Source: Patescibacteria group bacterium UBA7435 (GTDB taxonomy: Bacteria; Patescibacteriota; Minisyncoccia; Phycocordibacterales; UBA918). From it: DNA of 64,000 nt. Shown piece by piece: positions 9,671 through 40,061 of the stretch. The position numbers were made by a program, and so were the translations under genes. The stretch covers positions 87,188-151,187 of the forward strand of contig DLQJ01000007.1 in NCBI GenBank assembly GCA_002477545.1, in the 5' to 3' direction. Numbering within the stretch: position 1 is the first letter of the stretch; each line of letters starts with the position of its first letter. Under the pieces are notes generated by a model. It made no database searches and had not been told where the DNA came from. It saw only the letters and a list, made by a program, of their open reading frames with translations.

Positions 9671-9931
9671 TTATTGTTGATACATCAGCAGATACGGTTT
9701 AAGTGCTTGGATACATAGAAGTCCCACCCCAGTTACAAGCGTATACACATACATTCCACTACCGCCATATCCAAAATATGCGTCAATTATTGCAGCAAGT
9801 ACAATCAACTCAATTCCTGCATACAAAAATGCGTAGATTACAGCGGATACAACAAATACGACAACAGGGCCAGTGAGGCCAAGCACCGCCACCAAAACAA
9901 AAAGTGAAAATTGTAATGCGTTATTCTTCAT
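9671..9931 (-). CDS. small polytopic membrane protein, possibly reduced MreD
   Basis: 86 aa, 3 TM helices; sits in the mreD position between mreC and PBP2. Confidence 0.3.
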   Translation of the reverse strand: MKNNALQFSLFVLVAVLGLTGPVVVFVVSAVIYAFLYAGIELIVLAAIIDAYFGYGGSGMYVYTLVTGVGLLCIQALKPYLLMYQQ

Positions 9932-11898: not shown

Positions 11899-11908
11899 TA
11901 CAGTATAT

Positions 11909-15185: not shown

Positions 15186-15809
15186 CTACTGTTTTGGTAG
15201 TGCTAATGCTAACTCTTCACACAACATCTTCGCAGAAGCGCCCGGAGTTTTACTGTATTCTCTGATAAATAATACTGTCTTTAACAACAGTGCATTTTTT
15301 TGTGTATCTCCAGAAGCATACACTTCAGCTCCACAAAGCACATCCTCAAAAAATTGTATTTCTTTTTTCTTAGCCGCATCAGCAATGGAAGCGAGGCGTC
15401 CTGCATAATCATCTGCGACAAACATATCAAATGTATCATTGCTTAGCATTGCTATTGCACTGTCTGAGCTGATAATGGCTACACGTGATCGTAGTGTAGG
15501 AATAAGCATTCCCTCTTGTGGTATGACCAAATAAAATTGCGCGAATTCTGGTGGGTCTTCAAACAGTTTCAGTAAGGCGTTTTGTGATTCAATAGGCAAT
15601 ACTTTAACCACCAATACAAACACGCGCATATCTTGTTCAATTGGTTTTTGTAGTGCGTCAGTTGATAAGGTACGTGCATCAGCAATACTAAATCTATCAA
15701 GGACTATATGCGTAACATCACTTGATGATTTTTTATAAGCTTCAGGTACTCCAGAAGCTTCTAGGGTGGAAGCTATACAAACATTTGCGTGATGATCATC
15801 AGTAGTCAT
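15186..15809 (-). CDS. holB: DNA polymerase III delta-prime-like clamp-loader subunit (short)
   Basis: LLKLFEDPP (LLKTLEEPP box) and TLRSRVAI (SRC sensor) present; only 207 aa with no P-loop. Confidence 0.55.
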   Translation of the reverse strand: MTTDDHHANVCIASTLEASGVPEAYKKSSSDVTHIVLDRFSIADARTLSTDALQKPIEQDMRVFVLVVKVLPIESQNALLKLFEDPPEFAQFYLVIPQEGMLIPTLRSRVAIISSDSAIAMLSNDTFDMFVADDYAGRLASIADAAKKKEIQFFEDVLCGAEVYASGDTQKNALLLKTVLFIREYSKTPGASAKMLCEELALALPKQ

Positions 15810-17469: not shown

Positions 17470-17510
17470 AGAGGTACGAGCTGTGCTCGCACCTCTTGTG
17501 GATACCTTTT

Positions 17511-17819
17511 CTAAACTCCCTGACTTTGAATACGAGAAACAAATTGTTGCATAAACGAATGCTGTTCTTCCTGCAGGATCGTGTTGAACGATGGATATGT
17601 TTGCTGAATATGGGCAAGTGTTGCATCAAAAGTGTCATACGATTCAATGGCATGTGTAAATGCATGCAGCTGATCTTCGGTTAGTGTATCCATCAAACGC
17701 ATAATGGATGCATCAAAAACTAATCCGCCAATTTTAGCCACAAATGCAGCTCGCTGTGTTGGTACATAATTCTCAATCCCAAGTACCTGTAGTTGTTCTG
17801 TTGTAAGTTGCACTGACAT
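17511..17819 (-). CDS. hypothetical protein (102 aa)
   Basis: ORF separated by 1 nt from the upstream gene. Confidence 0.45.
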   Translation of the reverse strand: MSVQLTTEQLQVLGIENYVPTQRAAFVAKIGGLVFDASIMRLMDTLTEDQLHAFTHAIESYDTFDATLAHIQQTYPSFNTILQEEQHSFMQQFVSRIQSQGV

Positions 17820-17820
17820 A

Positions 17821-19416
17821 CTATATATACTTAGTTACACTTTCAAAAAATGGCTGCAGGTTAATGCCGTTTTCATCCCCCTGAAAAACGGTGTGTATAT
17901 CTCCTGAATCAATTCCCATCTTTTTTGTAAGTTCGGTGTGTGCATTTGGATTTTTTTCTACATCAGCAATAAGTGCCCACATACCGGCAAGGAATTGTGC
18001 ATTGGAAACATCAAGGCCTTCAGCTATAGAATGGTCAGCTTTCCATGTTTCAAAAGCAGCTTCGGAAACTGTATCAATCACTTTACCTTCAGCGTTCTTT
18101 GCTCCCGAGAATACATATGAGACCTCTTGTTCACCTGGAGACATCTCAGAGGGAGCTGTATAGGTAGATGAAATACCTTCAGCTGAAACATGCGTGTTCA
18201 TTTCTGCTGCAGAAGTGAACATTGAACCGTCCAGTGTGGTAATGACGTCAGTCTGTTCTATAACCGTACCTTCTTCATTTATGGAAGATATCTGCTCTGA
18301 TTCAACTGACTGATTACCTATGTGTTTAATTCCTGAATCTGGTGTGGAAATATCATTTGTTGATGCATGTGCAGTTGGAACTTTAGGTATTGAAAAAGCT
18401 GGGTTAGACATATCTTCGTTATTAAGCATCGTTGGAAATGTCACTAAAGCAGCTAACCCTATGGCTTTGGCAGTACTCCAGAACCCCTTTCTGTCTTTTT
18501 TTATTTCACTAATTTTTTCAAAATATCCTCGTTCTGAAGCTCTTGTCTCAAGCGTAGCTTGCATCTCATTGAGTACTTCTTCAGGTTTTTCATTCTCAGA
18601 TAATTCGACCTTTTCAATAGGTTCACTTTCACTAGAAAAACCAACGAACTGATCGTCAGTCGCATCCTTAACACGCATATCGGGTGTTAACACAAGTCGT
18701 TCTGATTTTTTATTTTCCCCATCTGCTTCAGGTCCAACATTCTGAGAAAGTTCGTTAAGACGTTTAGTCTCAGACAGTTGAAATGCTTCAAACCCCTCTG
18801 CCGTATGCTTCATATCTGCATTATCATCTTCAGGAAGATCAAGATCACTTTCCACAGAAGTGACAGGTTGATCATCACTCAGGGCTAATGAGTCAGGTTC
18901 TACAATCTCTTGATTGACAGAATCTTCTTCATCTTCAGGAATAAGTGTTTCTAACTGCACTCCATTTTTTCTTGCAAAAGTTTCAACACGGTTACGCAAT
19001 TTTACCAATGCATTAAATTTAGTTTGTATATCTTGGACATCATCTTCCGTAAGAGCTGCATCACCTTGCTCTTTTGCTTTACGTGAGACTTCACCAAGCG
19101 CTTTCTTTAATTTTGCATACTGCATGCGAAGCGGGAAGTTTCCTTCCACTTCTTCTTTCGAGAGCCCCAGTCGGGGACTTTCATATCCTAAAGCAGTACG
19201 TATCTGATATCCTTCTGTAAAAAGTACAATTGCAGATTTAAACATCTCTTTTCTTCCTTCTTCAGTTTCTAAAGAGACCATTGGCATCTCAACTGCTTCT
19301 TGAGCAATTTTTGATTGCTCAGGTTTATCGCCTCCCGAACCAGAACCTTTCTCAGGTTCGTGTACCACGGAAAGATTAAACTCACCGTACCGTTTTTTGA
19401 AAGATTCTAAACCCAT
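17821..19416 (-). CDS. hypothetical acidic protein with a single central TM
   Basis: 531 aa; acidic coiled-coil-like N-terminal half; TM (GLAALVTFPTML); Ser/Thr-rich probable extracytoplasmic C-terminal half. Confidence 0.5.
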   Translation of the reverse strand: MGLESFKKRYGEFNLSVVHEPEKGSGSGGDKPEQSKIAQEAVEMPMVSLETEEGRKEMFKSAIVLFTEGYQIRTALGYESPRLGLSKEEVEGNFPLRMQYAKLKKALGEVSRKAKEQGDAALTEDDVQDIQTKFNALVKLRNRVETFARKNGVQLETLIPEDEEDSVNQEIVEPDSLALSDDQPVTSVESDLDLPEDDNADMKHTAEGFEAFQLSETKRLNELSQNVGPEADGENKKSERLVLTPDMRVKDATDDQFVGFSSESEPIEKVELSENEKPEEVLNEMQATLETRASERGYFEKISEIKKDRKGFWSTAKAIGLAALVTFPTMLNNEDMSNPAFSIPKVPTAHASTNDISTPDSGIKHIGNQSVESEQISSINEEGTVIEQTDVITTLDGSMFTSAAEMNTHVSAEGISSTYTAPSEMSPGEQEVSYVFSGAKNAEGKVIDTVSEAAFETWKADHSIAEGLDVSNAQFLAGMWALIADVEKNPNAHTELTKKMGIDSGDIHTVFQGDENGINLQPFFESVTKYI

Positions 19417-19420
19417 ATCC

Positions 19421-22195
19421 CTACATCATACCAAATGGATCGTCGATTTTGACTTCTGGTTTTTGATAACGCTGTGCGATATCTGCCTCAACCTCAGCTC
19501 TGGGCTTCCCGTACTTCTGGTAACTCATCTCGATCATTCGTGCAACTCGTGCATGATCAGTATCCTGTGGCGCATGCGTTGCCATACTAAATGGCTTTGT
19601 TGGAGTTCCATTGGCAAGTACTCGCATATACGCAGTACGATTAGGTACATTCATTAAGTCAGCACTTTCAAACGTTGGTGCAAATTGAGATTCAAGATAC
19701 TGTGCGTCCTCAGGTCCCGTACGGAACACCGCCATGGATCCAACGTTTCCAAATACTGCGTCTTTAATATCTTCATCAAGCTGTGCAATAAACTGGTGTG
19801 CAACGGTAAGACCAAGTTTATATTTTCGGGCTTCTGAGAGAATTGCGGAAATAGAATTTGTTGAAATATTCTGGAACTCATCCATGTGTAAGTAGAAGTC
19901 AGGGAAGCTCTTGGTAGGATCATCTACGCGCGAAAGAGCAGCCATAAGAATTTTTCCCACCATAATCATACCAATGAGATTCGCATTGATTTCACCAAGC
20001 CGTCCCTTTGAAAGATTTACCAACAGAATTTTCTTTTGATCCATCACCTCACGGAAATCAAACGCTGATTTCTGCTGTCCAATAATTGGACGCATGTAAT
20101 CGTTCGCGGTGAAGACATCAAATTTTGAAACAATGTAGGGCACAATATTTTCAAGTGAGGCTTCCCCTCCTGCCTTAGTTGCAATCTCCCTCCAGAACTG
20201 GACCACCACAGGGTTCTTAGCTTTCTCAAGTTTCATGCGACGGAATTTCGCATCAACCATGACGCGTGAGATGTCCATCAACGTACTTCCACTATCAGGA
20301 TCCTCCATAACCAACAATGTTGCATTACGAAAGTACTGCTCAAACATAGGACCCATGGATTCTGGATTTCCTCCATACAACTTTTGGAATATAGAAAAGA
20401 GTTCATTCACCACAAAGGTCTTCTGCTCAGGCTTATTAATATCGTATTCAAGCATATTAAACCCAACCACACGGTCCATACGTGACGGGTCAAAATAAAT
20501 CACGTCCTTCTCACGTTCAGGTGGAATTGAGCTCAAAATATCTTCAATATCCGTTCCATGAGGATCGATCATACACACCCCAGCTCCAGAAGCGATGTCT
20601 TGCGTGATCATGTTCTTCATCAATGTCGTCTTTCCTGTTCCTGTCTGTCCAATGATATAGAAGTGACGCAGTCGATCTTCTTGCGAAATGTATACAGGCC
20701 GATCAGAACCACGGTGCGAGTTGGTCCCAAGTAGCGTTCCGTCATGAGGCATCTCACTTGGTGCAGCAGCTGTCTTTGCGCGTGATTGCTTAAATTCGGG
20801 AGATGAATCAATGCCATCTGCAGGAAAGTGAACCATCGTCGCAAGCTCAATCAAAGAAAGAGGTAACGCACGCTTTGTTAAAAATTCACGAAATGAGAAG
20901 GCTTTTATTTCACGTTGCAGAGCCGTGCCTGAAAGATGTGTAAACGTAACCTTGTTTCCCCGTGTGTGCTCAAACTGATTAAAAGTAGCTTCAACCTCAC
21001 TAAGAATTTGCGTAGCTCGTGCACCATCTTTTGCCGAAACAGCAACACGAATATTTGCTTCGACAATCGGTGCAGTTCGTTTTTCTGAAAAGAGATCAAT
21101 AACGTCTTGGTCAGATTGTGCAGTAGGAAGGTGTTCGTCATTTTCTTTTTTCTTAGCACTCCCAGACACTAAGTCCTTCACACTCACAAACATGTCCCCA
21201 CTAAACGTACTACGTGCGATAGCTTCCTTAACCTTCATTCCTTTCTCAACACGCTTGATGATTCCTTCGTACTGCCCTTTGTATTTACCAGGCGCAGTTT
21301 TGATAACCACTTGTAGTGCAGCACCTCCTCCATCTTTCTCTATTTTTGAAAATGCGTTTAGAAGTACTGCAAACGGATCAGTTTCAAAATTTTCTTTTGA
21401 ACGAATTGGGTAAATTGGATGCTTAGCAAGCTTCGCCACTGCAACTTTGGAAGTCCCGCCTTCAACAAAGACATTGTAATCGTGTTTTTGTTCGGTAAGA
21501 ACCACGTCTGGGTAGAGGGAGAGAATCTGTTTTTGGAACAAGTCTATATATTGCGTTGGTATTGCCACATAAAAAATGATGTGATCACTCCCCTCTGGCG
21601 TGGCAACTTCAAGTACATAATGCTCATTTTTAGTATGTTGCCCTATAGCCTGCATTCCTGCATAAAATTGTTCCATCATGCCAAACAGCTCAGAGAGTTG
21701 TTGCTCATGTCCCTCTTTAGTGCGTATTTCAGGAAGTGCAACTTCAAAGAGTGTCATATGCAAAATATGCCATGGCGCAATGCCTTCTTTTAAATCCTGC
21801 ATTTGTGCACCTTCCTTAATAAGTTCAACTAAACGTCGATGTACCTCATCGGTTTCAAATGGGTTGTTACTCTTCTCCAGGACAGACAGTGCGTTGTGAA
21901 TTCCCTTTTCAAGTGCCAGTTGCAGCACTTCTTCAACAACATTGGTAGACGTAGTAATGTGCTCTGCGTGAGAAGTCACATCTTCGGGCTCCATTTGATG
22001 CTCAGAAGATAAAACCGTATTTGGGGTAAATGTGCCATATTCAAAAAGCTCCTGCTTTCCCACCGTTTCGAGTTCAAGTGTATCGGCCTCTGGAGCACGG
22101 TCTAAAAGCGTTCGCTCTTTCTCAGCGATCTGTTGACGTAAGTATGAAATTTCCTCCTCGGGAGAAGAAAATTGCTTGGGAACACCCTCGAGCAT
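19421..22195 (-). CDS. FtsK/HerA/TraD-VirD4-superfamily P-loop NTPase with a large novel N-terminal domain
   Basis: 924 aa; Walker A GQTGTGKTT; Walker B LHMDEFQ; ARKYKLGLTVAHQFIAQL translocase motif; ~480-aa N-terminal domain with no TM. Confidence 0.65.
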   Translation of the reverse strand: MLEGVPKQFSSPEEEISYLRQQIAEKERTLLDRAPEADTLELETVGKQELFEYGTFTPNTVLSSEHQMEPEDVTSHAEHITTSTNVVEEVLQLALEKGIHNALSVLEKSNNPFETDEVHRRLVELIKEGAQMQDLKEGIAPWHILHMTLFEVALPEIRTKEGHEQQLSELFGMMEQFYAGMQAIGQHTKNEHYVLEVATPEGSDHIIFYVAIPTQYIDLFQKQILSLYPDVVLTEQKHDYNVFVEGGTSKVAVAKLAKHPIYPIRSKENFETDPFAVLLNAFSKIEKDGGGAALQVVIKTAPGKYKGQYEGIIKRVEKGMKVKEAIARSTFSGDMFVSVKDLVSGSAKKKENDEHLPTAQSDQDVIDLFSEKRTAPIVEANIRVAVSAKDGARATQILSEVEATFNQFEHTRGNKVTFTHLSGTALQREIKAFSFREFLTKRALPLSLIELATMVHFPADGIDSSPEFKQSRAKTAAAPSEMPHDGTLLGTNSHRGSDRPVYISQEDRLRHFYIIGQTGTGKTTLMKNMITQDIASGAGVCMIDPHGTDIEDILSSIPPEREKDVIYFDPSRMDRVVGFNMLEYDINKPEQKTFVVNELFSIFQKLYGGNPESMGPMFEQYFRNATLLVMEDPDSGSTLMDISRVMVDAKFRRMKLEKAKNPVVVQFWREIATKAGGEASLENIVPYIVSKFDVFTANDYMRPIIGQQKSAFDFREVMDQKKILLVNLSKGRLGEINANLIGMIMVGKILMAALSRVDDPTKSFPDFYLHMDEFQNISTNSISAILSEARKYKLGLTVAHQFIAQLDEDIKDAVFGNVGSMAVFRTGPEDAQYLESQFAPTFESADLMNVPNRTAYMRVLANGTPTKPFSMATHAPQDTDHARVARMIEMSYQKYGKPRAEVEADIAQRYQKPEVKIDDPFGMM

Positions 22196-22361: not shown

Positions 22362-23375
22362 TTACCGCTTCGTTAGGATTGTGCGCTTGTAGGTGTCTAG
22401 ATGTTCCAGAGCCACCCCAGTCCCCTTCGCGACACAAAACAGTGCCTGATCTGCAAGAAGTGCTTTCACTCCGGTACGGCGTCGGATCAATTCTGGAAAA
22501 TTCCGTAACTGTGACGTTCCTCCAGTCATAATAATTCCGTTGTCAATAATGTCTGCAGCAAGCTCAGGTGGTGTTTCTTGAAAAACATCCTTAATTGCCT
22601 TAACCATTTCTCGTAGTTCTCGCGAGATCGCACGCACAATTTCATTAGTTTTGATTTCTGTAGTTCGCGGTAGACCCGAAAGTAAGTCCCGTCCCTTAAT
22701 ATCCATAGTGATCTCTTCCTCAAGTGGCAACGCTGAACCCACCTTAATCTTTATGTCTTCCGCAGTTTTTTCTCCAATAGCAAGATTTCGCGTTTTCTTT
22801 ACATAATCAATGATCGCTGCGTCAATTCGGTTTCCTGCGCACTTTACTGAGTTCGCAGCCACAATACCGCCAAGTGAAATCACCGCAACATCGATTGTCC
22901 CTCCACCTATATCTACAATCATATGTCCCTGCGCTTCATATATAGGCACTCCCGCACCAATAGCAGCGAGAATTGGCTCCTTCACCACGTATGCATTTTT
23001 TGCACCAGCTTTTGCTGCTGCTTCTACTACCGCACGCTTTTCTGTAGAAGAAACTCCAGCTGGTACGGACACCATCACTTCAGGTCGAAAAATATTGTAT
23101 TTACTAAGTGTCTTCTTAAGAAAGTACCGGAGCATTGCTTCAGTCACTCGGTAGTCAGCAATCACTCCATCCTTCATAGGTCGGTACGCACGGATACTTT
23201 CCGGAGTTCGTCCAATCATACGCTTTGCTTCAGCACCTACAGCAAGCACCTGATTATCGTCAGAGACCGCCACCACTGACGGTTCGTTAAGTACCACTCC
23301 CTCACCAGGAACAAACACCAGTACATTAGTTGTACCTAAATCAATCCCAAGTTTTGGAGTAAATGATGAAAACAT
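22362..23375 (-). CDS. mreB: MreB paralog (actin-like ATPase)
   Basis: 337 aa; GIDLGTTN, DGVIADY, DIGGGT, MTGGTS motifs; second copy, 10.5 kb from the first. Confidence 0.85.
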   Translation of the reverse strand: MFSSFTPKLGIDLGTTNVLVFVPGEGVVLNEPSVVAVSDDNQVLAVGAEAKRMIGRTPESIRAYRPMKDGVIADYRVTEAMLRYFLKKTLSKYNIFRPEVMVSVPAGVSSTEKRAVVEAAAKAGAKNAYVVKEPILAAIGAGVPIYEAQGHMIVDIGGGTIDVAVISLGGIVAANSVKCAGNRIDAAIIDYVKKTRNLAIGEKTAEDIKIKVGSALPLEEEITMDIKGRDLLSGLPRTTEIKTNEIVRAISRELREMVKAIKDVFQETPPELAADIIDNGIIMTGGTSQLRNFPELIRRRTGVKALLADQALFCVAKGTGVALEHLDTYKRTILTKR

Positions 23376-23763: not shown

Positions 23764-25263
23764 ATGGATAATATTGGAAATCGAATCGCTTCCCTGCGCG
23801 AACAGGCACGCTTTACACAATCTGTCTTAGCAGAAAAAATCGGCACCACACAAAGTGCGGTGGCACGAATGGAAACAGGAAATCAAAATATCTCAACTGA
23901 AATGGTACGAAAAATAAGCAAAGCGTTAAATAAAAATCTCTTGACCGGAACACCTGGATCAGTAAATCTTCAAATTGAAGGTGGGGAGACGCTCTCGGGA
24001 ACTATCCAAACCAATACTTCGAAAAACGGTGCGGTTGGTCTTTTGTGTGCGTCATTACTAAATACAGGAACTACTACCCTACGTCGTATGCCTCGTATTG
24101 AAGAAGTATATCGCTTGATCGAAGTGCTTGAGAGTATCGATGTAAAAATCGAATGGGAGGGTGATCTAATGAAAATTACCCCACCGAAGAAATTCGATCT
24201 TTCGAAGATCAACGTAGAAGCAGCCCGCCGCACACGAAGTATCGTAATGTTTATTGGTCCACTAATGCATCACCTTAAAAAGTTCTCACTTCCACAATCG
24301 GGAGGTTGTAAACTTGGCAGTCGAACAGTGAGACCTCACTTCTACGCACTTGAACACTTTGGTGTGAATATCGAAACAACTGAGGACGCATTTGAAGTAA
24401 CTGCATCACCCGTATGTCCAAGTGAAATTATTCTCTACGAATCAGGTGATACGGTAACTGAAAATGCACTTTTTGCTGCAGCACTCTCCCCGTGCACAAC
24501 GACGATTAAATACTGTTCGGCGAACTATATGGTACAAGAAATGTGTGCCTTCCTTATTGCATGCGGGGTAAAAATTGAAGGAGTTGGAACCACAACACTT
24601 ACCATAACAGGTATACCTGAACTGGCACTGGATATTGAATACACACTGGCAGAAGATCCAACCGACTCGATGTTCTTCATTGCAACTGCGATTGTTACCA
24701 ACTCAGAACTCACTATCACACGTTGCCCTATTGATTTCCTTGAACTTGAGCTTCTGAAGCTTGGGAAGATGGGATTCAAATACACGCAATCAGAACCGTA
24801 TCTCAGTGATAATGGACTAACGCGTTTAGTAGACCTTGTAACCAAACCCTCTAAACTCACCTCACTGCACGAAAAAGTGTACGCTCGACCTTACCCAGGT
24901 CTGAATATCGATAACCTTCCCTTCTTTGCAGTTATTGCAACCCAAGCGGATGGGCAAACGCTCATCCATGATTGGGTATATGAAAAACGAGCAATTTACT
25001 TCACTGAACTTGATAAGCTCGGAGCTGAAACCATGCTTGCTGATCCACATCGCATCTACATCACCGGACCAACAAAACTACGAGCAAACGAGCTCGTATG
25101 CCCTCCTGCACTACGTCCTGCAACCATTCTGCTTATCGGAATGCTTGGCGCAACCGGAACATCAGTACTGCGTAATATCTATAGTATCAATCGAGGATAT
25201 GAAAATCTTGTAGAGCGCTTGCAGTCACTTGGTGCGAAGGTGTCGTATCTTGAGGAATTTTAA
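23764..25263 (+). CDS. murA: XRE-family HTH domain fused to UDP-N-acetylglucosamine 1-carboxyvinyltransferase
   Basis: N-terminal ~60 aa is a Cro/C1 HTH; remainder aligns to full MurA including the catalytic Cys (GGCKLGSR) and C-terminal RGYENL. Confidence 0.85.
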   Translation: MDNIGNRIASLREQARFTQSVLAEKIGTTQSAVARMETGNQNISTEMVRKISKALNKNLLTGTPGSVNLQIEGGETLSGTIQTNTSKNGAVGLLCASLLNTGTTTLRRMPRIEEVYRLIEVLESIDVKIEWEGDLMKITPPKKFDLSKINVEAARRTRSIVMFIGPLMHHLKKFSLPQSGGCKLGSRTVRPHFYALEHFGVNIETTEDAFEVTASPVCPSEIILYESGDTVTENALFAAALSPCTTTIKYCSANYMVQEMCAFLIACGVKIEGVGTTTLTITGIPELALDIEYTLAEDPTDSMFFIATAIVTNSELTITRCPIDFLELELLKLGKMGFKYTQSEPYLSDNGLTRLVDLVTKPSKLTSLHEKVYARPYPGLNIDNLPFFAVIATQADGQTLIHDWVYEKRAIYFTELDKLGAETMLADPHRIYITGPTKLRANELVCPPALRPATILLIGMLGATGTSVLRNIYSINRGYENLVERLQSLGAKVSYLEEF

Positions 25264-25287
25264 GAAATTGATGGCAACACAACAACA

Positions 25288-25325
25288 AAAGACCCGAAAG
25301 TCGAAGACTTTCGGGTCTTTTGTTA
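25288..25325 (+). terminator. rho-independent terminator
   Basis: gacccgaaagtc-gaa-gactttcgggtc then TTTTGTT. Confidence 0.8.
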
Positions 25326-25338
25326 TACTACCTATATT

Positions 25339-27225
25339 ATGTTTATTATCGAAGTGATTCCCCTATCTCGTGCTGGCATGATCGAATCACTTTCGTACTA
25401 CTGCGCTACAGCCTATCCTATAGGATCGTTCATCAGTGTCCCTGTGCGCAAAAAAGAAATCCAAGGTGTAGTTATTGGCACCAAACCTGTGTCTGCAGCA
25501 AAAACTGCCATCCGTGCAGCGACTTTTTCACTAAAAAAAATAGCTACTGTAGAAAACCCACCAGCGCTCCCAAAGAGCCTTATGGAAACCGCGCAAGAAC
25601 TCGCAAAAAATACCCCTGCACATATAGGAAGCATTCTCTTTGCATTACTGCCCCCTGATGTACGTTCTGGTGTACGCGAATACCCATACAGCACTAACTA
25701 CAGCAACAACGAAAGTTACACTCCATCGATTCTCACCGGAGTATCTAATGATCGTTTCATCTCGTATCGTAGCCATATACGTCAATGTTTTGCACATCGT
25801 GGATCAGTACTATTTGTTGTACCAACCTCAGCCTCCGTACACAGCGCAAAGGCAGCACTTGAAAACGGCATCGAAAAACGGGTGGTTACCTTCTCGAGCA
25901 CTCACACAAAGAAACAGATTGAAAAATCCTATGAAGCGTTCTCTGATTTAAGTACCGCAAAACTTATTATCACCACACCAAATTTTGCATTCTTAGACCG
26001 TCATGACATCACCAGTATTATTGTTGAAGAATGTGGATCTAATCATTACAAAACACGAACGCGCCCTTATCTAGATGCACGCGAGATCCTTAAGACGTAT
26101 GCCAAGGTAACAAAGCGGACTATCTTAATGGGAGATATACTACCTCGCACTGAAGAAGAAGCACTACGCCGCGATGACGTATACGAAACTCATGATGAAC
26201 ACCCCAAGCGATTAAGTATTGAAAGTTCCTTTACTGTTAGTGAACACGAAAAAACGGAAAGGGTAAAAGAATTTGCAATCTTTACACCTGAGCTTATTGA
26301 TTCTGTTAATCGAACTATCAAGGCCAAAGGAAGTGTATTCCTTTTTGCCGCTCGAAAAGGCCTTGCTCCATTGATAACCTGCTATGACTGTAGTCACATT
26401 TTCCGGTGCCCTGATTCAGGAGCTCCATACTCACTACTGCAGACCTATGAAAAAGGCGAAGAAAAACGTTGGTTCTTCTCATCTACCTCAGGAAAGAAAG
26501 TACGTGCTGACGATACTTGCCCGAAGTGTGGCTCGTGGCGCTTGCGTGAGCAAGGTATCGGCATTCAACAAGTAGTCATGCAAGCTCGAAAGTACTTTAA
26601 GGATGTGCCGTTGACCATCTTCGACCACACTTCAGCAACTACACATGTAAAAGCTAAGAGACTCACGAAACAATTTTATGAAGAGAAAGGTGCAATCATG
26701 ATTGGTACCACTATGGCGTTACCGTATCTCACCAAACCCGTAACTATCACCGCAGTTACATCATACGAAGCAGCACGCGCAATACCTACTTGGCGTGCAG
26801 AAGAAACATTGCTCAGTCTTCTGTTGACCTTGCGAGAAAAAACAACTAACGAATGTTTTGTACAAACGCGAACTGATCCTGATCAGCTTCTAAAATATGC
26901 AGGACGTGGATTAATTGACGAGTTCTATACCGAAGAGATCATGATGCGTCAGGTTCTTTCCTACCCTCCCTATGCCGTTTTCATTCTCCTTACGTGGGTA
27001 GGTACCCCAGAACAAATTCGTGAAGCAGAGGGATATATACAAACACAAATTCTCGGACATGAGATGCAGTGTTACAACGCACCTACTGTAACTACCAAGG
27101 GAATCACACGCTACGGGTTGATCCGTATTGCAAAAGAAGACTATCCTGACGCAAAACTTATCGATCAGTTGCGTCAACTTCCTCCTTCGGTAAAAATTGA
27201 GATTAATCCTGATAAAATTATTTAA
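25339..27225 (+). CDS. priA: PriA-like primosomal protein with degenerate helicase motifs
   Basis: PriA 3'-DNA-binding N-terminus and C-terminal domain present. Walker A absent, Walker B is EECG, no Arg finger; priA-def-fmt synteny. Confidence 0.6.
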   Translation: MFIIEVIPLSRAGMIESLSYYCATAYPIGSFISVPVRKKEIQGVVIGTKPVSAAKTAIRAATFSLKKIATVENPPALPKSLMETAQELAKNTPAHIGSILFALLPPDVRSGVREYPYSTNYSNNESYTPSILTGVSNDRFISYRSHIRQCFAHRGSVLFVVPTSASVHSAKAALENGIEKRVVTFSSTHTKKQIEKSYEAFSDLSTAKLIITTPNFAFLDRHDITSIIVEECGSNHYKTRTRPYLDAREILKTYAKVTKRTILMGDILPRTEEEALRRDDVYETHDEHPKRLSIESSFTVSEHEKTERVKEFAIFTPELIDSVNRTIKAKGSVFLFAARKGLAPLITCYDCSHIFRCPDSGAPYSLLQTYEKGEEKRWFFSSTSGKKVRADDTCPKCGSWRLREQGIGIQQVVMQARKYFKDVPLTIFDHTSATTHVKAKRLTKQFYEEKGAIMIGTTMALPYLTKPVTITAVTSYEAARAIPTWRAEETLLSLLLTLREKTTNECFVQTRTDPDQLLKYAGRGLIDEFYTEEIMMRQVLSYPPYAVFILLTWVGTPEQIREAEGYIQTQILGHEMQCYNAPTVTTKGITRYGLIRIAKEDYPDAKLIDQLRQLPPSVKIEINPDKII

Positions 27226-27287: not shown

Positions 27288-27653
27288 GTGCAGTTTGAAA
27301 AATTTCGTCTCGAAATAATCGTTCCTTATCACGGTGAAATGAAAGGCATCAAAAAAGCTATCTTCGTCGGCTTGGTGGACTTATATGTTACCCAAATACC
27401 GCGTATCGGAGAATTAATTAACACTGAAAATCTTACTTTCCCTGGATTTTCTGGTGATTTGATTGTGACAACAATTGAACACACCCCACTTTTGGCTGAA
27501 TCTAAATTAAGTATTGATAGGCCTCATATCTGGGTTACAGCACAACTCGAGAATGAAGAAAGGGCAGACACGAAGGAGATTTACGACTACTTAGAAAAAA
27601 ACGATAAATCTACCGAGAAAGATCGTCATTGGGAGTATTCAGGTGACCAATAG
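27288..27653 (+). CDS. hypothetical protein (121 aa), GTG start
   Basis: AGGAG SD 9 nt upstream of the GTG. Confidence 0.45.
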   Translation: MQFEKFRLEIIVPYHGEMKGIKKAIFVGLVDLYVTQIPRIGELINTENLTFPGFSGDLIVTTIEHTPLLAESKLSIDRPHIWVTAQLENEERADTKEIYDYLEKNDKSTEKDRHWEYSGDQ

Positions 27654-27665
27654 GTTGTGTCAGTC

Positions 27666-27698
27666 AGAAAAGGCTGTTCACAGCCTTTTCTTTTTTAT
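27666..27698 (+). terminator. rho-independent terminator
   Basis: aggctg-ttca-cagcct then TTTCTTTTTT. Confidence 0.75.
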
Positions 27699-27725: not shown

Positions 27726-28256
27726 ATGGCTACACTCGTCCCAGAAAATCACCCAGTACTACATGCTATTGCGGAAGAAGTAACGCAGAAGGAAATTGAG
27801 AATGGTTTTGTAGACAAGTTGATTAAAGACATGAAAAAGGCACTCAAAAGTTACAGTGTCGATGGTTTTACTGCGGTTGCAATTGCTGCGCCCCAAATTG
27901 GCGTATCAAAGCGCGTATTTATTATCGAAGATCAGAGCAATGATCGCGATGCACTTCCCTCTTTTGCTGCAATAAATCCTCAGATTATAAAGACCTCAAA
28001 GAAAACACACATCGTTGGGGAAGGATGTCTGTCACTGCCTGAAATGTACGGAGAGGTAAAACGGCACAAGAATGTCACCATGCGGGCACTGGATGAAAAC
28101 GGAAACGTCTTTGAACGTGGTGCTGGTGGACTACTCGCTCAAATCATCCAACACGAAAACAATCACCTGGACGGAATTCTCTTTATCGACATTGCCGAAA
28201 AGGTGTATTCAAAAGAAGAGATGAAAAAACGTGGGTTAAGTGAAGCTAAAGGATAA
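27726..28256 (+). CDS. def: peptide deformylase
   Basis: GIAAPQIG-like, EGCLS, QHENNHL (HExxH) motifs. Confidence 0.9.
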   Translation: MATLVPENHPVLHAIAEEVTQKEIENGFVDKLIKDMKKALKSYSVDGFTAVAIAAPQIGVSKRVFIIEDQSNDRDALPSFAAINPQIIKTSKKTHIVGEGCLSLPEMYGEVKRHKNVTMRALDENGNVFERGAGGLLAQIIQHENNHLDGILFIDIAEKVYSKEEMKKRGLSEAKG

Positions 28257-29143
28257 TGTCAGAACAATCACCAAACTTTGTATACTTCGGAGGTGAACCT
28301 ATTGGTGTACCTGTATTAAACGAACTTGAAGCATGTGGCTTGGTTCCCTCACTGATTGTTTGTAATCCTGACCGACCTGTTGGACGTAAACAAGTCTTCA
28401 CTGCCCCGCCGGTTAAACAATGGGCTCTGGAACGAAATATCGAAGTACTGCAACCTGAGACACTCAAAGAAAAAGAGGCCTTAAGTGCAGTCACAGAAAG
28501 ACAATTCGATTTGTTTGTTGTGGTCGCATACAATAAAATAATGCCCAAGTGGCTGATCGATAGCCCTACTCGTGGAACGCTTAACGTACACCCTTCTCTA
28601 TTACCACTACTTCGTGGCGCAAGTCCAATCCGCTCTACGATCCTTGGCGACATGCGGCAACAGTGTGGCGTGAGTATCATGCAAATGGATGAAAAAATGG
28701 ACCACGGGCCGATTGTGGCCCAACAGATCATGGATATAGAAGAAGCACAGTGGCCAATACACGGCAATGAACTTGATATTGCACTGGCAAATATCGGTGG
28801 AGCACTCCTTGCAAGCATTATCCCTCAGTGGATGGCGGGTGATATCGATCCGCAGGAACAGGATCACGATCAAGCAACGTTTTGTGGAAAACTCGATCGC
28901 TCCTCCGGCGAACTTGAATTAGATCCATGCAATCTCCCTACTGGCAAGGAAGCATACCAAACACTGTTGAAAATACGTGCATTTGAAGGATACCCAGGGA
29001 CATTTTTTATATATGAAAACAAGCGCGTTAAGGTAATTGATGCAGTACTCAGTGAGAGTGGCACACTGGAAATAAACCAGGTAGTTCCTGAGGGTAAAAA
29101 ACAAATAGCGTTCCAATTATATTTGGACGGGCTAGCTAGATAA
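28256..29143 (+). CDS. fmt: methionyl-tRNA formyltransferase
   Basis: Formyltransferase N-terminal (HPSLLP) and C-terminal domains; overlaps the def stop. Confidence 0.9.
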   Translation: MSEQSPNFVYFGGEPIGVPVLNELEACGLVPSLIVCNPDRPVGRKQVFTAPPVKQWALERNIEVLQPETLKEKEALSAVTERQFDLFVVVAYNKIMPKWLIDSPTRGTLNVHPSLLPLLRGASPIRSTILGDMRQQCGVSIMQMDEKMDHGPIVAQQIMDIEEAQWPIHGNELDIALANIGGALLASIIPQWMAGDIDPQEQDHDQATFCGKLDRSSGELELDPCNLPTGKEAYQTLLKIRAFEGYPGTFFIYENKRVKVIDAVLSESGTLEINQVVPEGKKQIAFQLYLDGLAR

Positions 29144-33070: not shown

Positions 33071-33108
33071 AAAAAGGGCTGCACATGTGCAGCCCTTTCT
33101 GTTTTTTA
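33071..33108. terminator. bidirectional terminator (phoH2 / putative short + strand transcript)
   Basis: agggctgcaca|tgtgcagccct perfect palindrome with T-tracts on both sides. Confidence 0.75.
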
Positions 33109-34638
33109 TAGACGCTCTTCTGCCAAAGTAGCAAACGCACTGCGTTCACCGCTTTGGAGCGTAACGTGTCCCGTAATCATTGCAGTGCGCAATGTACGGA
33201 TGTATACCGACAAACCACAGGTATGTTCTGTCAGATACGGGTCATCAATCTGGGCTACGTTGCCTAGAAAAACTATTTTTGAATCCATTCCTACACGCGT
33301 TGAGATCATTTTCAACTTCTTGACGGTGAGATCTTGTGTCTCATCAACAATAATCAGCGTGTTGGCGATACTGCGACCCTTCATGAAATTCAGGGCCTTG
33401 ATTTGAATAAGCTTTCTGATTGCTTCGTCTGAAGCATTCTGCTCACCTTCACCACGCAGTTCTAACAAAGACTCTAGATTGTCATAGAGTCCACCCATCC
33501 AAGGAGCAAGCTTCTCTTCTTCAGTTCCGGGTAAAAATCCAATGTCTTCATCAGACCCAAACATGGAACGAGTAAAAATGATTCGCTTGTACACTCCTCT
33601 CCTTAGTAGATGTAGACCAGCAGCAAGTGTCAAAAATGTTTTACCACTACCAGCCTTACCTGCGAGTGACACTGCAGGCAAATTTATATCAAGTAACAGT
33701 TGCAATGCAATTGCCTGCTCAATATTCCTAGGAACAACATTAATCTCCTTAAGGTCAGAGTGATGAGAGAATGTCTGCGCAACCACATTTGTCGTGCTAT
33801 TTTTTGAGATAACACGAAGTGGCTCTTGCTCAGGAATGAGCAAGAACTCATTACAGGTAACCTTAGCCAAATCAGGATGCTCAAATGTGTATTGAGAAAC
33901 ACCCTTGGCACTTTCAGGATTACCAACATTGCTGTCGAAGAAATCTGACGGCATAGTATGGAAACCTGGAGTGAGATCTTCCTCACCCTCAACAAGACCT
34001 ACCGTGTCACTAAGATACTCCTCAGCATCTAAGCCAACAACACTTGCCTTAATCCGGCAGCTACCATCGTTTGATACCAAGACAACTCGTTTTCCTTCTT
34101 CCTTAAGCGCCAAACAAATCAGAATAATCCGATTGTCTGGATGATTAAGATCCAGATCGAACTCCTTGTGAGCCACCGGTTTAGTGAAATCAAAGTGAAG
34201 TGTCCCAGTGTGTGGCTTCCCATTGATCAACTCAGATGGGGGTACTAGTTGTACTCCTTTCTGAATATCTTGCGTGGACTTGCCTTCAAGCAGTGTGCCG
34301 ATTGCTCGGATTGCTTGCCGGACATTCCATGCTTCTGGGGTGTGACCTTTCTTATGTGTATCAAGCTCCTCAAGAACCTGACTTACAATACACACATCAT
34401 GTTCTTCGAACTTAAACAGCGAATCCCATGCAGACATGATCACGTTCGTATCAAGTACGTAAGTAATTACGCTCTTTGTGTCAACTGATATGCGACGAAA
34501 CTTAGCTGGGATACTTTGCTTTGTATGCCAGCTTTCTGCCTGAGTCTGCCTCTTACTCACTTTATGGTGAGGTGGTTTTCCATTTCCTTTGCCCCGAGGT
34601 GAACCGCCCGGGTTCTTCATTCCATTTGTGTGTGGCAT
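33106..34638 (-). CDS. PhoH2: PIN-domain plus PhoH-like P-loop ATPase
   Basis: N-terminal PIN (VLDTNVI); C-terminal Walker A AGKAGSGKT; PhoH family length. Confidence 0.8.
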   Translation of the reverse strand: MPHTNGMKNPGGSPRGKGNGKPPHHKVSKRQTQAESWHTKQSIPAKFRRISVDTKSVITYVLDTNVIMSAWDSLFKFEEHDVCIVSQVLEELDTHKKGHTPEAWNVRQAIRAIGTLLEGKSTQDIQKGVQLVPPSELINGKPHTGTLHFDFTKPVAHKEFDLDLNHPDNRIILICLALKEEGKRVVLVSNDGSCRIKASVVGLDAEEYLSDTVGLVEGEEDLTPGFHTMPSDFFDSNVGNPESAKGVSQYTFEHPDLAKVTCNEFLLIPEQEPLRVISKNSTTNVVAQTFSHHSDLKEINVVPRNIEQAIALQLLLDINLPAVSLAGKAGSGKTFLTLAAGLHLLRRGVYKRIIFTRSMFGSDEDIGFLPGTEEEKLAPWMGGLYDNLESLLELRGEGEQNASDEAIRKLIQIKALNFMKGRSIANTLIIVDETQDLTVKKLKMISTRVGMDSKIVFLGNVAQIDDPYLTEHTCGLSVYIRTLRTAMITGHVTLQSGERSAFATLAEERL

Positions 34639-39959: not shown

Positions 39960-40018
39960 AGAGATTTACTGAAAGTAGTAAGGCTCCATAGTACCATGAT
40001 GAAGTCATTTCAATTTAT

Positions 40019-40051
40019 TAAAAACCGTCGGATTTCTCCGACGATTTTTCT
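40019..40051. terminator. bidirectional terminator
   Basis: aaaaac-cgtcgga-tttc-tccgacg-atttttc. Confidence 0.7.
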
Positions 40052-40061
40052 TTCATTCTAC

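What the first reader, a model, noticed from the sequence alone, without database searches (positions are those of the whole stretch)
25339..27225. PriA-like protein lacking Walker A, DExH and arginine-finger motifs
Alignment to PriA is clear in several places:
- the N-terminal 3'-DNA-binding domain (MFIIEVIPLSRAG...VPVRKKEIQGVVIG);
- one Cys4 knuckle (CYDC...CPKC);
- the C-terminal domain (IMIGTTMALPY...MMRQVLSYPPY);
- conserved priA-def-fmt synteny.

The helicase positions are degenerate. The P-loop is TGVSNDRF instead of GxTGSGKT, Walker B is IIVEECGS instead of DEEH, the motif VI arginines are absent, and the second zinc knuckle is lost. This predicts an ATPase-dead PriA that may act as a DNA-structure-binding or primosome-loading scaffold rather than a helicase.
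Basis: partly seen in the sequence, partly recalled or inferred. Interest (0 to 1): 0.6.

Follow-up and report, generated by a model that had tools for sequence, protein, structure and literature searches.

The report
ATPase-dead PriA of Parcubacteria (pseudohelicase)
This gene is the replication-restart protein PriA of an uncultured ultra-small (CPR/Parcubacteria) bacterium; it and hundreds of related lineages keep the PriA fold and DNA- and partner-binding surfaces but have lost the ATP-binding motor motifs, making a second and much larger natural case, after Deinococcus, of PriA working as a scaffold rather than a helicase.

Summary
Window 25339-27225 (+) is an intact 628-aa ORF with the PriA fold: AF2 pLDDT 89.6, and the top nine PDB matches are all PriA at TM about 0.7. 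The order priA-def-fmt is present.

Compared with E. coli PriA:
- Walker A GVTGSGKT is GVSND-RF.
- DEEH is EECG.
- SAT is DIL.
- Motif VI has a 5-residue deletion that removes the first arginine.
- The inner zinc site is gone and the winged-helix domain is absent.

This is not decay. All 449 unique full-length relatives I collected (26-86% identity, Parcubacteria-group MAGs) share the motif I and VI lesions. Synonymous sites are saturated while dN is 0.088. Locus synteny is conserved in about 70 of 78 genomes.

The kind is already known. Deinococcus-Thermus PriA is a proven pseudohelicase, and E. coli K230R PriA still assembles primosomes. I read this as a new, larger and more degenerate variant of that kind, most likely a fork-recognition and helicase-loading scaffold. 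No biochemistry was possible, and I could not search a whole genome for a second priA.

The parts
25339..27225 (+). priA-like gene, 628 aa plus stop: PriA pseudohelicase of a Parcubacteria-group bacterium
   Evidence: ORF list. Pfam, NCBIfam and PDB hits to PriA. AF2 pLDDT 89.6 and Foldseek top hits all PriA. An identical protein is found on 17 metagenome contigs.
25339..25653 (+). 3'-DNA-binding domain (aa 1-105)
   Evidence: PF17764, E 6.3e-8. L18, Y20 and G29 are conserved in over 97% of the family. Ec D17 is replaced by S or T.
25654..25722 (+). short linker (aa 106-128) where E. coli PriA has its winged-helix domain; that domain is absent here
   Evidence: Predicted coil in AF2. The Walker A position is 91 residues earlier than in E. 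coli. The model matches the E. coli winged-helix deletion structure 6dcr at TM 0.72. This is the least conserved segment.
25729..25767 (+). motif I (Walker A) remnant ILTGVSNDRFISY; R139 replaces K230
   Evidence: HMMER and MAFFT alignments. R in 448 of 449 relatives; GK[ST] in 0 of 449.
26014..26040 (+). motif II (Walker B) remnant SIIVEECGS; EECG in place of DEEH
   Evidence: The first acidic residue is E or D in 449 of 449; the following positions vary.
26047..26082 (+). motif IIa / aromatic-rich junction loop YKTRTRPYLDAR, largely retained
   Evidence: Aligns to canonical YKQ..P[RC]YHAR. P243 is conserved in 328 of 333, and Y or F at position 244 in 309 of 333. Its role as a fork-junction wedge comes from PMC5175346 and PMC10175261.
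26125..26148 (+). motif III remnant LMGDILPR (SAT -> DIL); D266 is conserved
   Evidence: Asp at the Ec S356 position in 427 of 449.
26374..26550 (+). cysteine-rich region (aa 346-404). The outer Zn site C348/C351/C394/C397 is kept. The inner site is lost (only C357 remains). The conserved face D350 ... S399-W400-R401 is equivalent to the E. coli PriB-docking site.
   Evidence: Cys patterns. D350 in 447 of 449, W400 in 448 of 449, and CGSWRLREQGIG is the most conserved 12-mer of the family. E. coli docking residues are from PMC10175261.
   Evidence: Aligns to Ec ILIGTQMLAKGHHF. It is the second most conserved 12-mer of the family.
26815..26871 (+). motif VI remnant SLLLTL-----REKTTNECFVQTR. 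A 5-residue deletion removes the first arginine finger. R499 aligns with Ec R587.
   Evidence: The deletion is present in 449 of 449, and Arg at the R587 position in 395 of 449.
26896..27222 (+). C-terminal domain (aa about 520-628), including the invariant R537 and Y542-P543-P544
   Evidence: Aligns to Ec RRMMQLPPW. AF2 predicts a confident alpha/beta domain. Foldseek alignments span the full length.
27726..28256 (+). def (peptide deformylase), the conserved downstream neighbour
   Evidence: PF01327, E 1e-41. Downstream of priA in 74 of 78 related loci.
28256..29143 (+). fmt (methionyl-tRNA formyltransferase), a conserved neighbour
   Evidence: PF00551 and PF02911. Present in 69 of 78 loci.

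Best explanation
This is the orthologous priA of a Parcubacteria-group (CPR/Patescibacteria) bacterium, and it is a pseudohelicase.

What it keeps and what it has lost (shown): it keeps the PriA architecture of 3'-end-binding domain, two RecA-like lobes, cysteine-rich region and C-terminal domain. It has lost the residues that bind and hydrolyse ATP: the P-loop, most of motif II, motif III, and the first arginine of motif VI. It also lacks the winged-helix domain, and in this subclade the inner zinc site.

Proposed mechanism (inferred by homology to E. coli PriA-fork structures):
1. [quoted passage not shown]
2. The retained loop after motif II wedges at the fork junction, and lobe 2, the CRR and the CTD hold lagging-strand ssDNA.
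3. The strongly conserved CRR face (D350, S399-W400-R401, next to the retained zinc knuckle) recruits the next factor. That factor is either the replicative helicase DnaB directly, as reported for Deinococcus PriA, or a still unidentified adaptor.

The outcome would be that the replisome is reloaded without PriA unwinding any DNA. The conserved charged residues left in the former ATP cleft (R139, E230, D266, R499) probably hold the two lobes together in place of nucleotide. This last point is inference only.
For: Shown:
- PriA homology and fold.
- Loss of motifs I, II, III and VI, against a positive control of six canonical PriAs that keep them at comparable divergence (34% against 32% mean identity).
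- The lesions are universal in 449 unique full-length relatives down to 26% identity: K230->R in 448 of 449, no GK[ST] in any, motif VI deletion in 449 of 449.
- The family has 771 clusters at 50% identity with E <= 1e-30. Every named member belongs to the Patescibacteria or Parcubacteria group: Kaiserbacteria, Nomurabacteria, Taylorbacteria, Paceibacteria, Minisyncoccia.
- Purifying selection: against the 86%-identical orthologue, 299 codons differ synonymously and 86 non-synonymously, dN is 0.088 and dS is saturated.
- It sits in the orthologous slot: MreB / HTH-MurA / priA / def / fmt / HPF / Grx is conserved in about 70 of 78 species-level genomes.
- Only one PriA-like ORF per locus, and none other in the window.
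- The most conserved segments are the CRR C-terminal knuckle and the face equivalent to the PriB-docking site, then motif V, then motif IV with the first knuckle.

From the literature:
- E. coli K230R (priA300) lacks ATPase and helicase activity but is nearly wild type and assembles primosomes (PMC5778457).
- K230A PriA loads DnaB in vitro, and ATPase is not needed for the PriA-PriB pathway (PMC10175261).
- D. radiodurans PriA, also K->R, has no ATPase or helicase activity but binds forks and DnaB (PMC4504706).
Against: - No biochemical measurement exists for any member. A non-canonical nucleotide site cannot be formally excluded: an acidic Walker B residue, R139 and R499 persist, and a second weak nucleotide site has been proposed for E. 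coli PriA.
- The partner is unknown. No DnaB, loader, SSB, PriB or DnaT gene lies in the window.
- Ec D17, which is important for 3'-end binding, is Ser or Thr here, so 3'-end recognition may differ.
- The absence of a second, intact priA elsewhere in the genome was not checked genome-wide.
Confidence: 0.75

Rival explanations
1. The protein is still an NTPase or translocase that uses a non-canonical active site. For example, R139 would act in place of the Walker lysine, E230/E231 as Walker B, and R499 as the arginine finger.
For: An acidic residue at the D320 position is kept in 449 of 449. Arg at the K230 position is kept in 448 of 449, and Arg at the R587 position in 395 of 449. This query keeps EE at the DE positions. 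Such strict conservation of cleft residues needs some explanation.
Against: - The glycine-rich P-loop is absent and one residue shorter, and the position before R139 is acidic (D/E/N in 420 of 449), which would repel phosphate.
- K230R alone abolishes ATPase in E. coli PriA.
- The catalytic Glu position (E321) is freely variable across the family: R, K, E, N, S, H.
- Motif III is lost, and the GRAG of motif VI is deleted in all members.
- Precomputed Pfam annotation shows no DEAD, ResIII or Helicase_C hit in any relative.
Confidence: 0.07
2. It is a neofunctionalised paralogue, and a canonical, active PriA is encoded elsewhere in these genomes. The pseudohelicase would then have some accessory role rather than being the restart initiator.
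For: Only 64 kb of the source genome and about 16 kb around each of 78 relatives could be inspected. A whole-genome search was not possible with the tools.
Against: - The gene occupies the classical priA-def-fmt position in about 70 of 78 genomes.
- A canonical-PriA profile finds exactly one ORF per locus, and it is always this family.
- Sources annotate only this protein as primosomal protein N' in these MAGs.
- CPR genomes are about 1 Mb with little redundancy (general knowledge).
- In Deinococcus the pseudohelicase is treated as the organism's PriA (PMC4504706).
Confidence: 0.07
3. It is a decaying pseudogene or a non-functional relic in a reduced genome.
For: Multiple catalytic motifs, a zinc site and a whole domain are lost. 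The score falls below every NCBIfam PriA cutoff.
Against: - The full-length ORF is intact in 78 of 78 GTDB loci and in 449 unique proteins of nearly constant length (median 631 aa).
- There are no frameshifts or internal stops.
- Purifying selection is strong.
- There are dozens of invariant positions and a confident AF2 fold.
Confidence: 0.01
4. It retains fork and DNA-structure binding but has shifted to a different cellular job. It might be the general DnaB-loading adaptor (including at oriC), or a fork-protection or blocking factor, rather than acting specifically in replication restart.
For: The partner-docking CRR face is the most conserved element, yet its residues differ from E. coli (W400 and R401 against T482 and H483). 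The winged-helix domain that contacts parental duplex in E. coli is missing. No known restart partners were seen nearby.
Against: There is no positive evidence for any alternative role. The simplest reading of orthology, synteny and the Deinococcus and priA300 precedents is retained restart function.
Confidence: 0.1

Closest known systems
Deinococcus-Thermus PriA pseudohelicase (D. radiodurans PriA; Lopper, Boone & Morrow 2015, PMC4504706)
   Same: A natural PriA orthologue with poor motif I and II matches and Arg in place of the Walker A lysine. Experimentally it has no ATPase or helicase activity but binds ssDNA, fork DNA and DnaB. The same functional logic is proposed here.
   Different: - The host lineage is different (Parcubacteria group against Deinococcus-Thermus), and the radiation is far larger: 771 or more clusters at 50% identity.
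- The lesions here go further: a shortened P-loop with no glycines, loss of motif III, a 5-residue deletion in motif VI, no winged-helix domain, and loss of the inner zinc site in this subclade.
- Whether the two losses are independent was not tested, because no Deinococcus-Thermus sequence was obtainable.
E. coli PriA K230R / K230A (priA300), engineered ATPase-dead variants
   Same: Both have a Lys->Arg change at the Walker A lysine. The E. coli variants still assemble primosomes, support the PriA-PriB restart pathway and load DnaB in vitro (PMC5778457; PMC10175261). This shows that a PriA scaffold without motor activity is sufficient for restart.
   Different: These are single-residue laboratory mutants of an otherwise intact helicase with PriB and DnaT partners. 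They are defective in the PriA-PriC pathway and in Mu transposition. The protein here is a natural, multiply degenerate form in organisms whose partners are unknown.
Canonical PriA replication-restart helicase (TIGR00595; structures 4NL4, 6DGD, 8FAK)
   Same: Same overall fold and domain order of 3'BD, HD1, HD2, CRR and CTD (Foldseek E 2.6e-35, TM about 0.7). Same genomic context of priA-def-fmt. The outer zinc knuckle, motifs IV and V, the junction loop and the CTD 'R...PP' element are retained.
   Different: Motifs I, II, III and VI are not conserved. There is no winged-helix domain. This protein has one zinc site instead of two. It scores 146.7 bits against the 230.35 cutoff of TIGR00595 and has about 20% identity to canonical PriAs.
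E. coli PriA winged-helix deletion construct (PDB 6DCR)
   Same: It is among the best structural matches to the model (TMq 0.72, TMt 0.71), consistent with a natural PriA architecture that lacks the winged-helix domain.
   Different: 6DCR is an engineered deletion of an active helicase. Here the missing domain is the native state of a whole family with a median length of 631 aa.

Membership tests
PriA (primosomal protein N' / replication restart helicase, TIGR00595) | N-terminal 3'-DNA-binding domain | tested here: met
   PF17764, E 6.3e-8, above the gathering score (32.8 against 22.7), residues 19-105. Ec Y18 and G29 equivalents are conserved in over 97% of the family. The Ec D17 equivalent is Ser or Thr.
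PriA (primosomal protein N' / replication restart helicase, TIGR00595) | Two RecA-like SF2 helicase lobes with the PriA-specific CRR inserted in lobe 2, followed by a C-terminal domain (overall fold) | tested here: met
   AF2 pLDDT 89.6, pTM 0.88. The Foldseek top nine PDB hits are all PriA, TM 0.64-0.73, and the next hits (Mfd, DEAD-box) are at TM 0.38 or below.
PriA (primosomal protein N' / replication restart helicase, TIGR00595) | Intact SF2 ATPase motifs: I (GxxGSGKT), II (DExH), III (SAT), VI (QxxGRxGR) | tested here: not met
   The motifs read GVSND-RF, EECG, DIL and TL-----RE. The same holds in 449 of 449 relatives. Six canonical controls keep all four motifs.
PriA (primosomal protein N' / replication restart helicase, TIGR00595) | Cysteine-rich region binding two zinc ions (eight Cys) | tested here: not met
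   Five Cys remain. The outer site (four Cys) is intact and the inner site is reduced to C357. 249 of 449 relatives still have all eight. Zinc content itself cannot be tested here.
PriA (primosomal protein N' / replication restart helicase, TIGR00595) | [quoted passage not shown] | tested here: not met
   Only a 23-residue coil links the 3'BD to lobe 1. The protein is about 100 aa shorter than E. coli PriA. I did not establish whether this domain is universal among canonical PriAs.
PriA (primosomal protein N' / replication restart helicase, TIGR00595) | Score above the curated equivalog cutoff | tested here: not met
   TIGR00595 scores 146.7 bits against a 230.35 cutoff. All 14 NCBIfam PriA models fall below their cutoffs.
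PriA (primosomal protein N' / replication restart helicase, TIGR00595) | Orthologous genomic position (priA-def-fmt). This is supportive rather than defining. | tested here: met
   def and fmt lie immediately downstream. The arrangement is conserved in 69-74 of 78 related genomes.
PriA (primosomal protein N' / replication restart helicase, TIGR00595) | DNA-dependent ATPase and 3'-5' helicase activity; primosome assembly at forks | not testable with these tools
   Requires purified protein. The sequence predicts no ATPase activity.
PriA pseudohelicase (as defined for Deinococcus-Thermus, PMC4504706) | Clearly derived from PriA, but the Walker A lysine is replaced by Arg and motifs I and II match the consensus poorly | tested here: met
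   R139 at the K230 position (448 of 449 relatives), no GK[ST] in any, and DEEH -> EECG or a variable sequence.
PriA pseudohelicase (as defined for Deinococcus-Thermus, PMC4504706) | No ATP hydrolysis or duplex unwinding, while fork and ssDNA binding and the DnaB interaction are retained | not testable with these tools
   Biochemical criteria. Only the conservation of the DNA-binding and CRR surfaces could be shown.
PriA pseudohelicase (as defined for Deinococcus-Thermus, PMC4504706) | Belongs to the same evolutionary lineage as the Deinococcus-Thermus proteins (a single loss event) | not tested
   No Deinococcus or Thermus PriA sequence was reachable: the plasmid search returned none and AFDB was unavailable. 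The host taxa differ (Parcubacteria group), so I consider independent loss more likely.

The most novel reading that the evidence does not exclude
Loss of PriA motor activity is ancestral to, and universal in, the Parcubacteria (possibly a larger part of the CPR), and arose independently of Deinococcus-Thermus. Under this reading:
- The former ATP cleft has been turned into a fixed inter-lobe charge network (R139-E230 and D266-R499) that locks the protein in one fork-binding conformation.
- The nearly invariant CRR face (D350, S399-W400-R/K401) recruits either DnaB directly or a CPR-specific adaptor that has not been described.

This would make scaffolding, not unwinding, the core and sufficient function of PriA across a substantial fraction of bacterial diversity. 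It would also point to an undiscovered helicase-loading pathway in CPR bacteria.
Probability: 0.25. Interest if true: 0.7.

Novelty: new variant of a known kind. Interest (0 to 1): 0.55.

Why it matters
[quoted passage not shown] Here a second lineage lacks the ATPase motifs in every member sampled, and it is far more diverse: the Parcubacteria group of the Candidate Phyla Radiation, with 771 or more clusters at 50% identity. The protein remains under strong selection.

This strengthens the view, so far based on E. coli priA300 and one Deinococcus protein, that fork recognition and partner recruitment are the indispensable functions of PriA and that unwinding is an optional extra.

It also gives a natural minimal PriA for structural and biochemical work: no winged helix, one zinc site, no motor. 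It flags a strongly conserved CRR surface as the likely docking site for an unknown partner in organisms whose helicase-loading machinery is uncharacterised.

On the practical side, these proteins fall below the NCBIfam equivalog cutoffs and are often annotated as 'hypothetical protein', so genome surveys may wrongly score Parcubacteria as lacking priA.

Tried and rejected
- Pseudogene reading: rejected on intact ORFs, constant length, saturated dS against dN of 0.088, and many invariant sites.
- Alignment artefact or a hidden P-loop: rejected. HMMER pairwise, MAFFT auto and L-INS-i with six canonical controls all agree. A regex for GK[ST] near motif I finds 0 of 449. A Walker A pattern occurs anywhere in only 4 of 333 proteins, and none of those lies at motif I.
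- My own interim idea that the aromatic-rich loop was remodelled (W333->P): rejected after the control showed that Pro is the canonical residue there and E. coli Trp is the outlier.
- A formal dN/dS value could not be obtained because dS is saturated for all available pairs. I used raw codon counts instead.
It therefore samples only relatives at 43% identity or above.
- Cluster look-ups gave almost no taxon names.
- AFDB Foldseek was unavailable.
- The search of the plasmid collection for a Deinococcus or Thermus PriA found none, so independence from that lineage is untested.
- D266/R499 covariation was inconclusive, because both positions are almost invariant.
- orf121, downstream of priA, was examined as a possible partner. 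It has no family or PDB hit, it is absent from all 78 related loci, and its single-sequence AF2 model has pLDDT 52, too poor for a fold search. I rejected it as a core partner.
- No DnaB, loader or SSB gene is in the window.
- Literature searches for PriA together with Patescibacteria, CPR or Parcubacteria found no description of this family.
Full report
**1. What is at the coordinates**

Window 25339-27225 (+) is a single intact ORF of 628 codons with an ATG start. Homologues begin at the same residue and have the same length, so the start is well supported.

The protein is unmistakably related to PriA:
- Pfam finds the PriA 3'-DNA-binding domain above its gathering score (E 6.3e-8, residues 19-105).
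- NCBIfam TIGR00595 'replication restart helicase PriA' matches residues 145-564 at E 8e-43.
- phmmer against PDB sequences finds only PriA chains of K. pneumoniae and E. coli (E about 5e-16).
- An AlphaFold2 model built on 63 homologues is confident (pLDDT 89.6, pTM 0.88).
- By Foldseek, its nine best PDB matches are all PriA structures (E down to 2.6e-35, TM 0.64-0.73). The next hits (Mfd, DEAD-box proteins) have TM of 0.38 or below.

At the same time, the protein misses every curated PriA cutoff (146.7 bits against 230.35 for TIGR00595).

**2. The motif losses are real**

I took E. coli K-12 PriA from the annotated genome. I aligned it by HMMER pairwise, by MAFFT with 120 close homologues, with about 145 distant representatives, and by L-INS-i together with five further canonical PriAs fetched from public records: Listeria, Parabacteroides, Acaryochloris, Sinorhizobium and Acetoanaerobium. 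All alignments agree.

| Motif | E. coli | This protein | Note |
|---|---|---|---|
| I (Walker A) | GVTGSGKT | GVSND-RF | one residue shorter; K230->R139, T231->F140 |
| II (Walker B) | DEEH | EECG | |
| III | SAT | DIL | |
| VI | QVAGRAGRAG | TL-----RE | deletion removes G583-R584-A585-G586 |

The six canonical proteins share only 34% mean identity, yet they keep GxTxSGKTE, DE[EC]H, SATP and QVxGRAGR perfectly. The family of the query has a comparable internal divergence (32%) and has none of these. The loss is therefore not a by-product of divergence or misalignment.

- An arginine aligned with the second motif VI arginine (Ec R587) survives as R499.
- 'IMIGTTMALPY' is helicase motif V, not the C-terminal domain.
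- The first Walker B acidic residue is retained.

In addition, the winged-helix domain of E. coli PriA is absent. A 23-residue predicted coil joins the 3'BD to lobe 1. The model superposes on the engineered E. coli winged-helix deletion structure about as well as on any other PriA structure (TM 0.72).

**3. It is a conserved family, not decay**

- The word-indexed search found 909 proteins.
- The exhaustive search of 1.84 billion representatives found 771 clusters at 50% identity with E <= 1e-30. The best 150 are almost all about 630 aa long, at 28-47% identity.
- With two further searches I assembled 449 unique full-length members, 26-86% identical to the query and with a median length of 631 aa.

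In that set of 449:
- The Walker A lysine position is Arg in 448.
- No sequence has GK[ST] at motif I.
- The motif VI deletion is present in all 449.
- The motif III Ser position is Asp in 427.
- The Walker B Asp position is Glu or Asp in all 449, but the catalytic Glu position is freely variable.

Against the closest orthologue (86% identical) there are 299 synonymous against 86 non-synonymous codon differences. Third positions are only 43% identical. dN is 0.088 and dS is saturated. This is strong purifying selection on a protein that cannot have a canonical ATP site.

**4. The zinc story is more nuanced than the finding suggests**

The outer zinc site (Ec C436, C439, C476, C479) is invariant in the family. 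The inner site (Ec C445, C448, C463, C466) is fully retained in 249 of 449 members. It is lost in the query's subclade, where it is replaced by a conserved Cys-free segment (CPDSGAPYSL...RWF.SSTSGK), and it is lost in part in a few other branches.

So motor loss is the ancestral state of the family, and loss of the second zinc knuckle is a later and narrower event.

**5. Who carries it, and in what context**

A scan of one genome per GTDB species returned 78 loci. They come from MAGs labelled Candidatus Kaiserbacteria, Nomurabacteria, Paceibacteria or Paceibacterota, Parcubacteria, Minisyncoccia and 'Patescibacteria group'. Names attached to more distant members add Taylorbacteria and Paceibacter. 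NCBI taxonomy places these in the Patescibacteria group, Parcubacteria group.

A few labels are probably mis-binning or loose labelling, because the loci are collinear with the rest: 'Patiriisocius', 'Azotimanducaceae' and 'uncultured Ca. Saccharibacteria'.

The gene order T4CP-like ATPase / MreB / HTH-MurA / priA / def / fmt / HPF / glutaredoxin is conserved in about 70 of 78 loci. The window shows priA-def-fmt by Pfam. This is the classical priA neighbourhood, so the gene is the orthologue and not a stray paralogue.

A profile built from canonical PriAs finds exactly one ORF per locus, and none other in the window. The rest of the window encodes typical CPR housekeeping genes and no DnaB, loader, SSB, PriB or DnaT. 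I could not search a whole genome.

**6. What remains conserved points to the mechanism**

Ranked by column entropy, the three most conserved 12-residue windows of the family are:
- CGSWRLREQGIG (aa 397-408), the C-terminal zinc knuckle and the strand leaving the CRR.
- IMIGTTMALPYL, motif V.
- KGLAPLITCYDC, motif IV plus the first knuckle.

In the E. coli PriA/PriB/fork cryo-EM structure, fork binding pivots the CRR. [quoted passage not shown] The equivalent positions here are D350 (447 of 449), S399 (374), W400 (448) and R/K401 (417). That face is under the tightest constraint in the protein, although its chemistry differs from E. coli, as expected if the partner is different.

Other retained elements:
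- The loop after motif II wedges into the fork junction in E. coli (PMC5175346 and PMC10175261). It is retained as RP[YF]xDxR against the canonical P[RC]YHAR.
- The core of the 3'BD is conserved (L18, Y20, G29). The residue equivalent to Ec D17, implicated in 3'-end binding, is Ser or Thr.

The most likely mechanism is that the protein recognises an abandoned fork or D-loop through these retained surfaces and presents the CRR face to recruit the replicative helicase or an adaptor, without unwinding. The steps are inferred by homology. None was measured.

**7. Comparison with what is known**

The concept is not new.
- E. coli priA300 (K230R) has no ATPase, helicase or translocase activity. Its cells are nevertheless nearly wild type, and the protein works in restart assays. 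Helicase activity is needed only for the PriA-PriC route and for Mu transposition (PMC5778457). K230A PriA is routinely used to load DnaB in vitro.
- Lopper et al. showed that PriAs of the Deinococcus-Thermus phylum have poor motifs I and II with the same Lys->Arg change. [quoted passage not shown]
- The 2018 review still lists Deinococcus as the sole exception to helicase conservation.
- Full-text searches combining PriA or 'primosomal protein' with Patescibacteria, CPR or Parcubacteria found no description of the present family.

I therefore classify it as a new variant of a known kind. It has the same functional logic as the Deinococcus case. It differs in sitting in a different and far more diverse lineage, and in having deeper lesions: the P-loop glycines are gone, motif III is lost, motif VI is deleted, there is no winged helix, and in this subclade there is only one zinc site. 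I could not test whether the two lineages lost the motor independently, because no Deinococcus-Thermus sequence was obtainable.

**8. Rivals**

- A cryptic non-canonical NTPase is unlikely. Acidic residues precede R139, the catalytic Glu position is variable, and half of motif VI is missing. But the strict conservation of R139, E/D230, D266 and R499 does call for an explanation. My preferred one is a salt-bridge network replacing nucleotide, and it is untested.
- A paralogue coexisting with an intact PriA is unlikely, given the synteny and the single copy per locus. It was not excluded genome-wide.
- A decaying pseudogene is excluded.
- A shift to a different DNA-structure-binding role cannot be excluded.

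**9. Verdict**

Interest is moderate. A specialist would not be astonished by an ATPase-dead PriA. But finding that a major bacterial radiation uniformly lacks the PriA motor, with a sharply conserved candidate partner-docking face and unknown partners, is a useful and testable extension.

Noticed in passing
window 27288-27653 (+), with a hairpin at 27666-27691: A 121-aa ORF sits between priA and def and is followed at once by a terminator-like hairpin, so priA and this ORF may form one transcript here. It is called as a gene in the ENA record but has no Pfam, NCBIfam or PDB match. It is absent from all 78 related loci, where def follows priA directly. Its single-sequence AF2 model is mostly beta but has a pLDDT of only 52.
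   Followed up: partly
window 25283-25325: A 20-bp near-perfect palindromic hairpin flanked by A- and T-runs (bidirectional terminator-like) lies in the 75-nt gap between the murA-like gene and priA. It ends 13 nt before the priA start codon. A TATACT box follows it, and no obvious Shine-Dalgarno sequence is present.
   Followed up: partly
window 23764-25263 (+): A 499-aa fusion of an XRE-type HTH_3 domain to a MurA/EPSP-synthase-fold enzyme lies immediately upstream of priA. It is conserved in that position in 74 of 78 related genomes. This is an unusual architecture for a cell-wall enzyme.
   Followed up: partly
window 19421-22195 (-), and 15874-19416 (-): A 924-aa P-loop ATPase with HerA/DUF87, TrwB and VirD4-like coupling-protein signatures is conserved near priA in 50 of 78 loci. 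It is followed by three ORFs (531, 102 and 524 aa) with no Pfam hits. This may be a CPR-typical secretion or DNA-translocation module.
   Followed up: no
window 22362-23375 (-) and 10825-11937 (-); also 9921-10880, 7972-9669 and 317-2035: Two MreB paralogues, MreC and two PBP transpeptidases lie in one 64-kb stretch, next to a mraZ-rsmH cluster. This amounts to a full rod-shape and elongation toolkit in an ultra-small bacterium.
   Followed up: no
window 15186-15809 (-): A short (207 aa) DNA polymerase III delta/delta-prime-like protein. Only the C-terminal part of the PF13177 profile matches (positions 65-156 of 161). It is the only other replication protein seen in the window.
   Followed up: no
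window 40001-42000 (ORF 40062-42095, -): The highest GC (0.472) and strongest negative GC skew (-0.316) of the window coincide with a 677-aa ORF that starts with a signal or transmembrane-like segment and has no Pfam hit.
   Followed up: no
window 33106-34638 (-): A 510-aa PIN-domain plus PhoH-like ATPase fusion.
   Followed up: no
loci L002, L018, and L003/L006-L008 and others: Contigs carrying the Parcubacteria-type MreB / MurA / priA / def / fmt locus are deposited under the names 'Patiriisocius sp.' (Flavobacteriaceae), 'Candidatus Azotimanducaceae' and 'uncultured Candidatus Saccharibacteria'. This looks like mis-binning or loose taxonomic labelling in public MAGs.
   Followed up: partly
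family alignment (proteins P0137-P0456), CRR columns equivalent to Ec C445, C448, C463 and C466: Besides the query's subclade, other branches show partial loss of the inner zinc ligands. The Cys patterns are CCCxCxCC (33 members), CCxxCxCC (30) and CCxxxxCC (26). This suggests repeated erosion of the second zinc site once motor activity was gone.
   Followed up: partly
proteins P0182, P0184 and P0237 (family members): A few family members still read DEEH, DDEH or EEEH at motif II although they have no P-loop. These may be vestiges of the ancestral Walker B.
   Followed up: no
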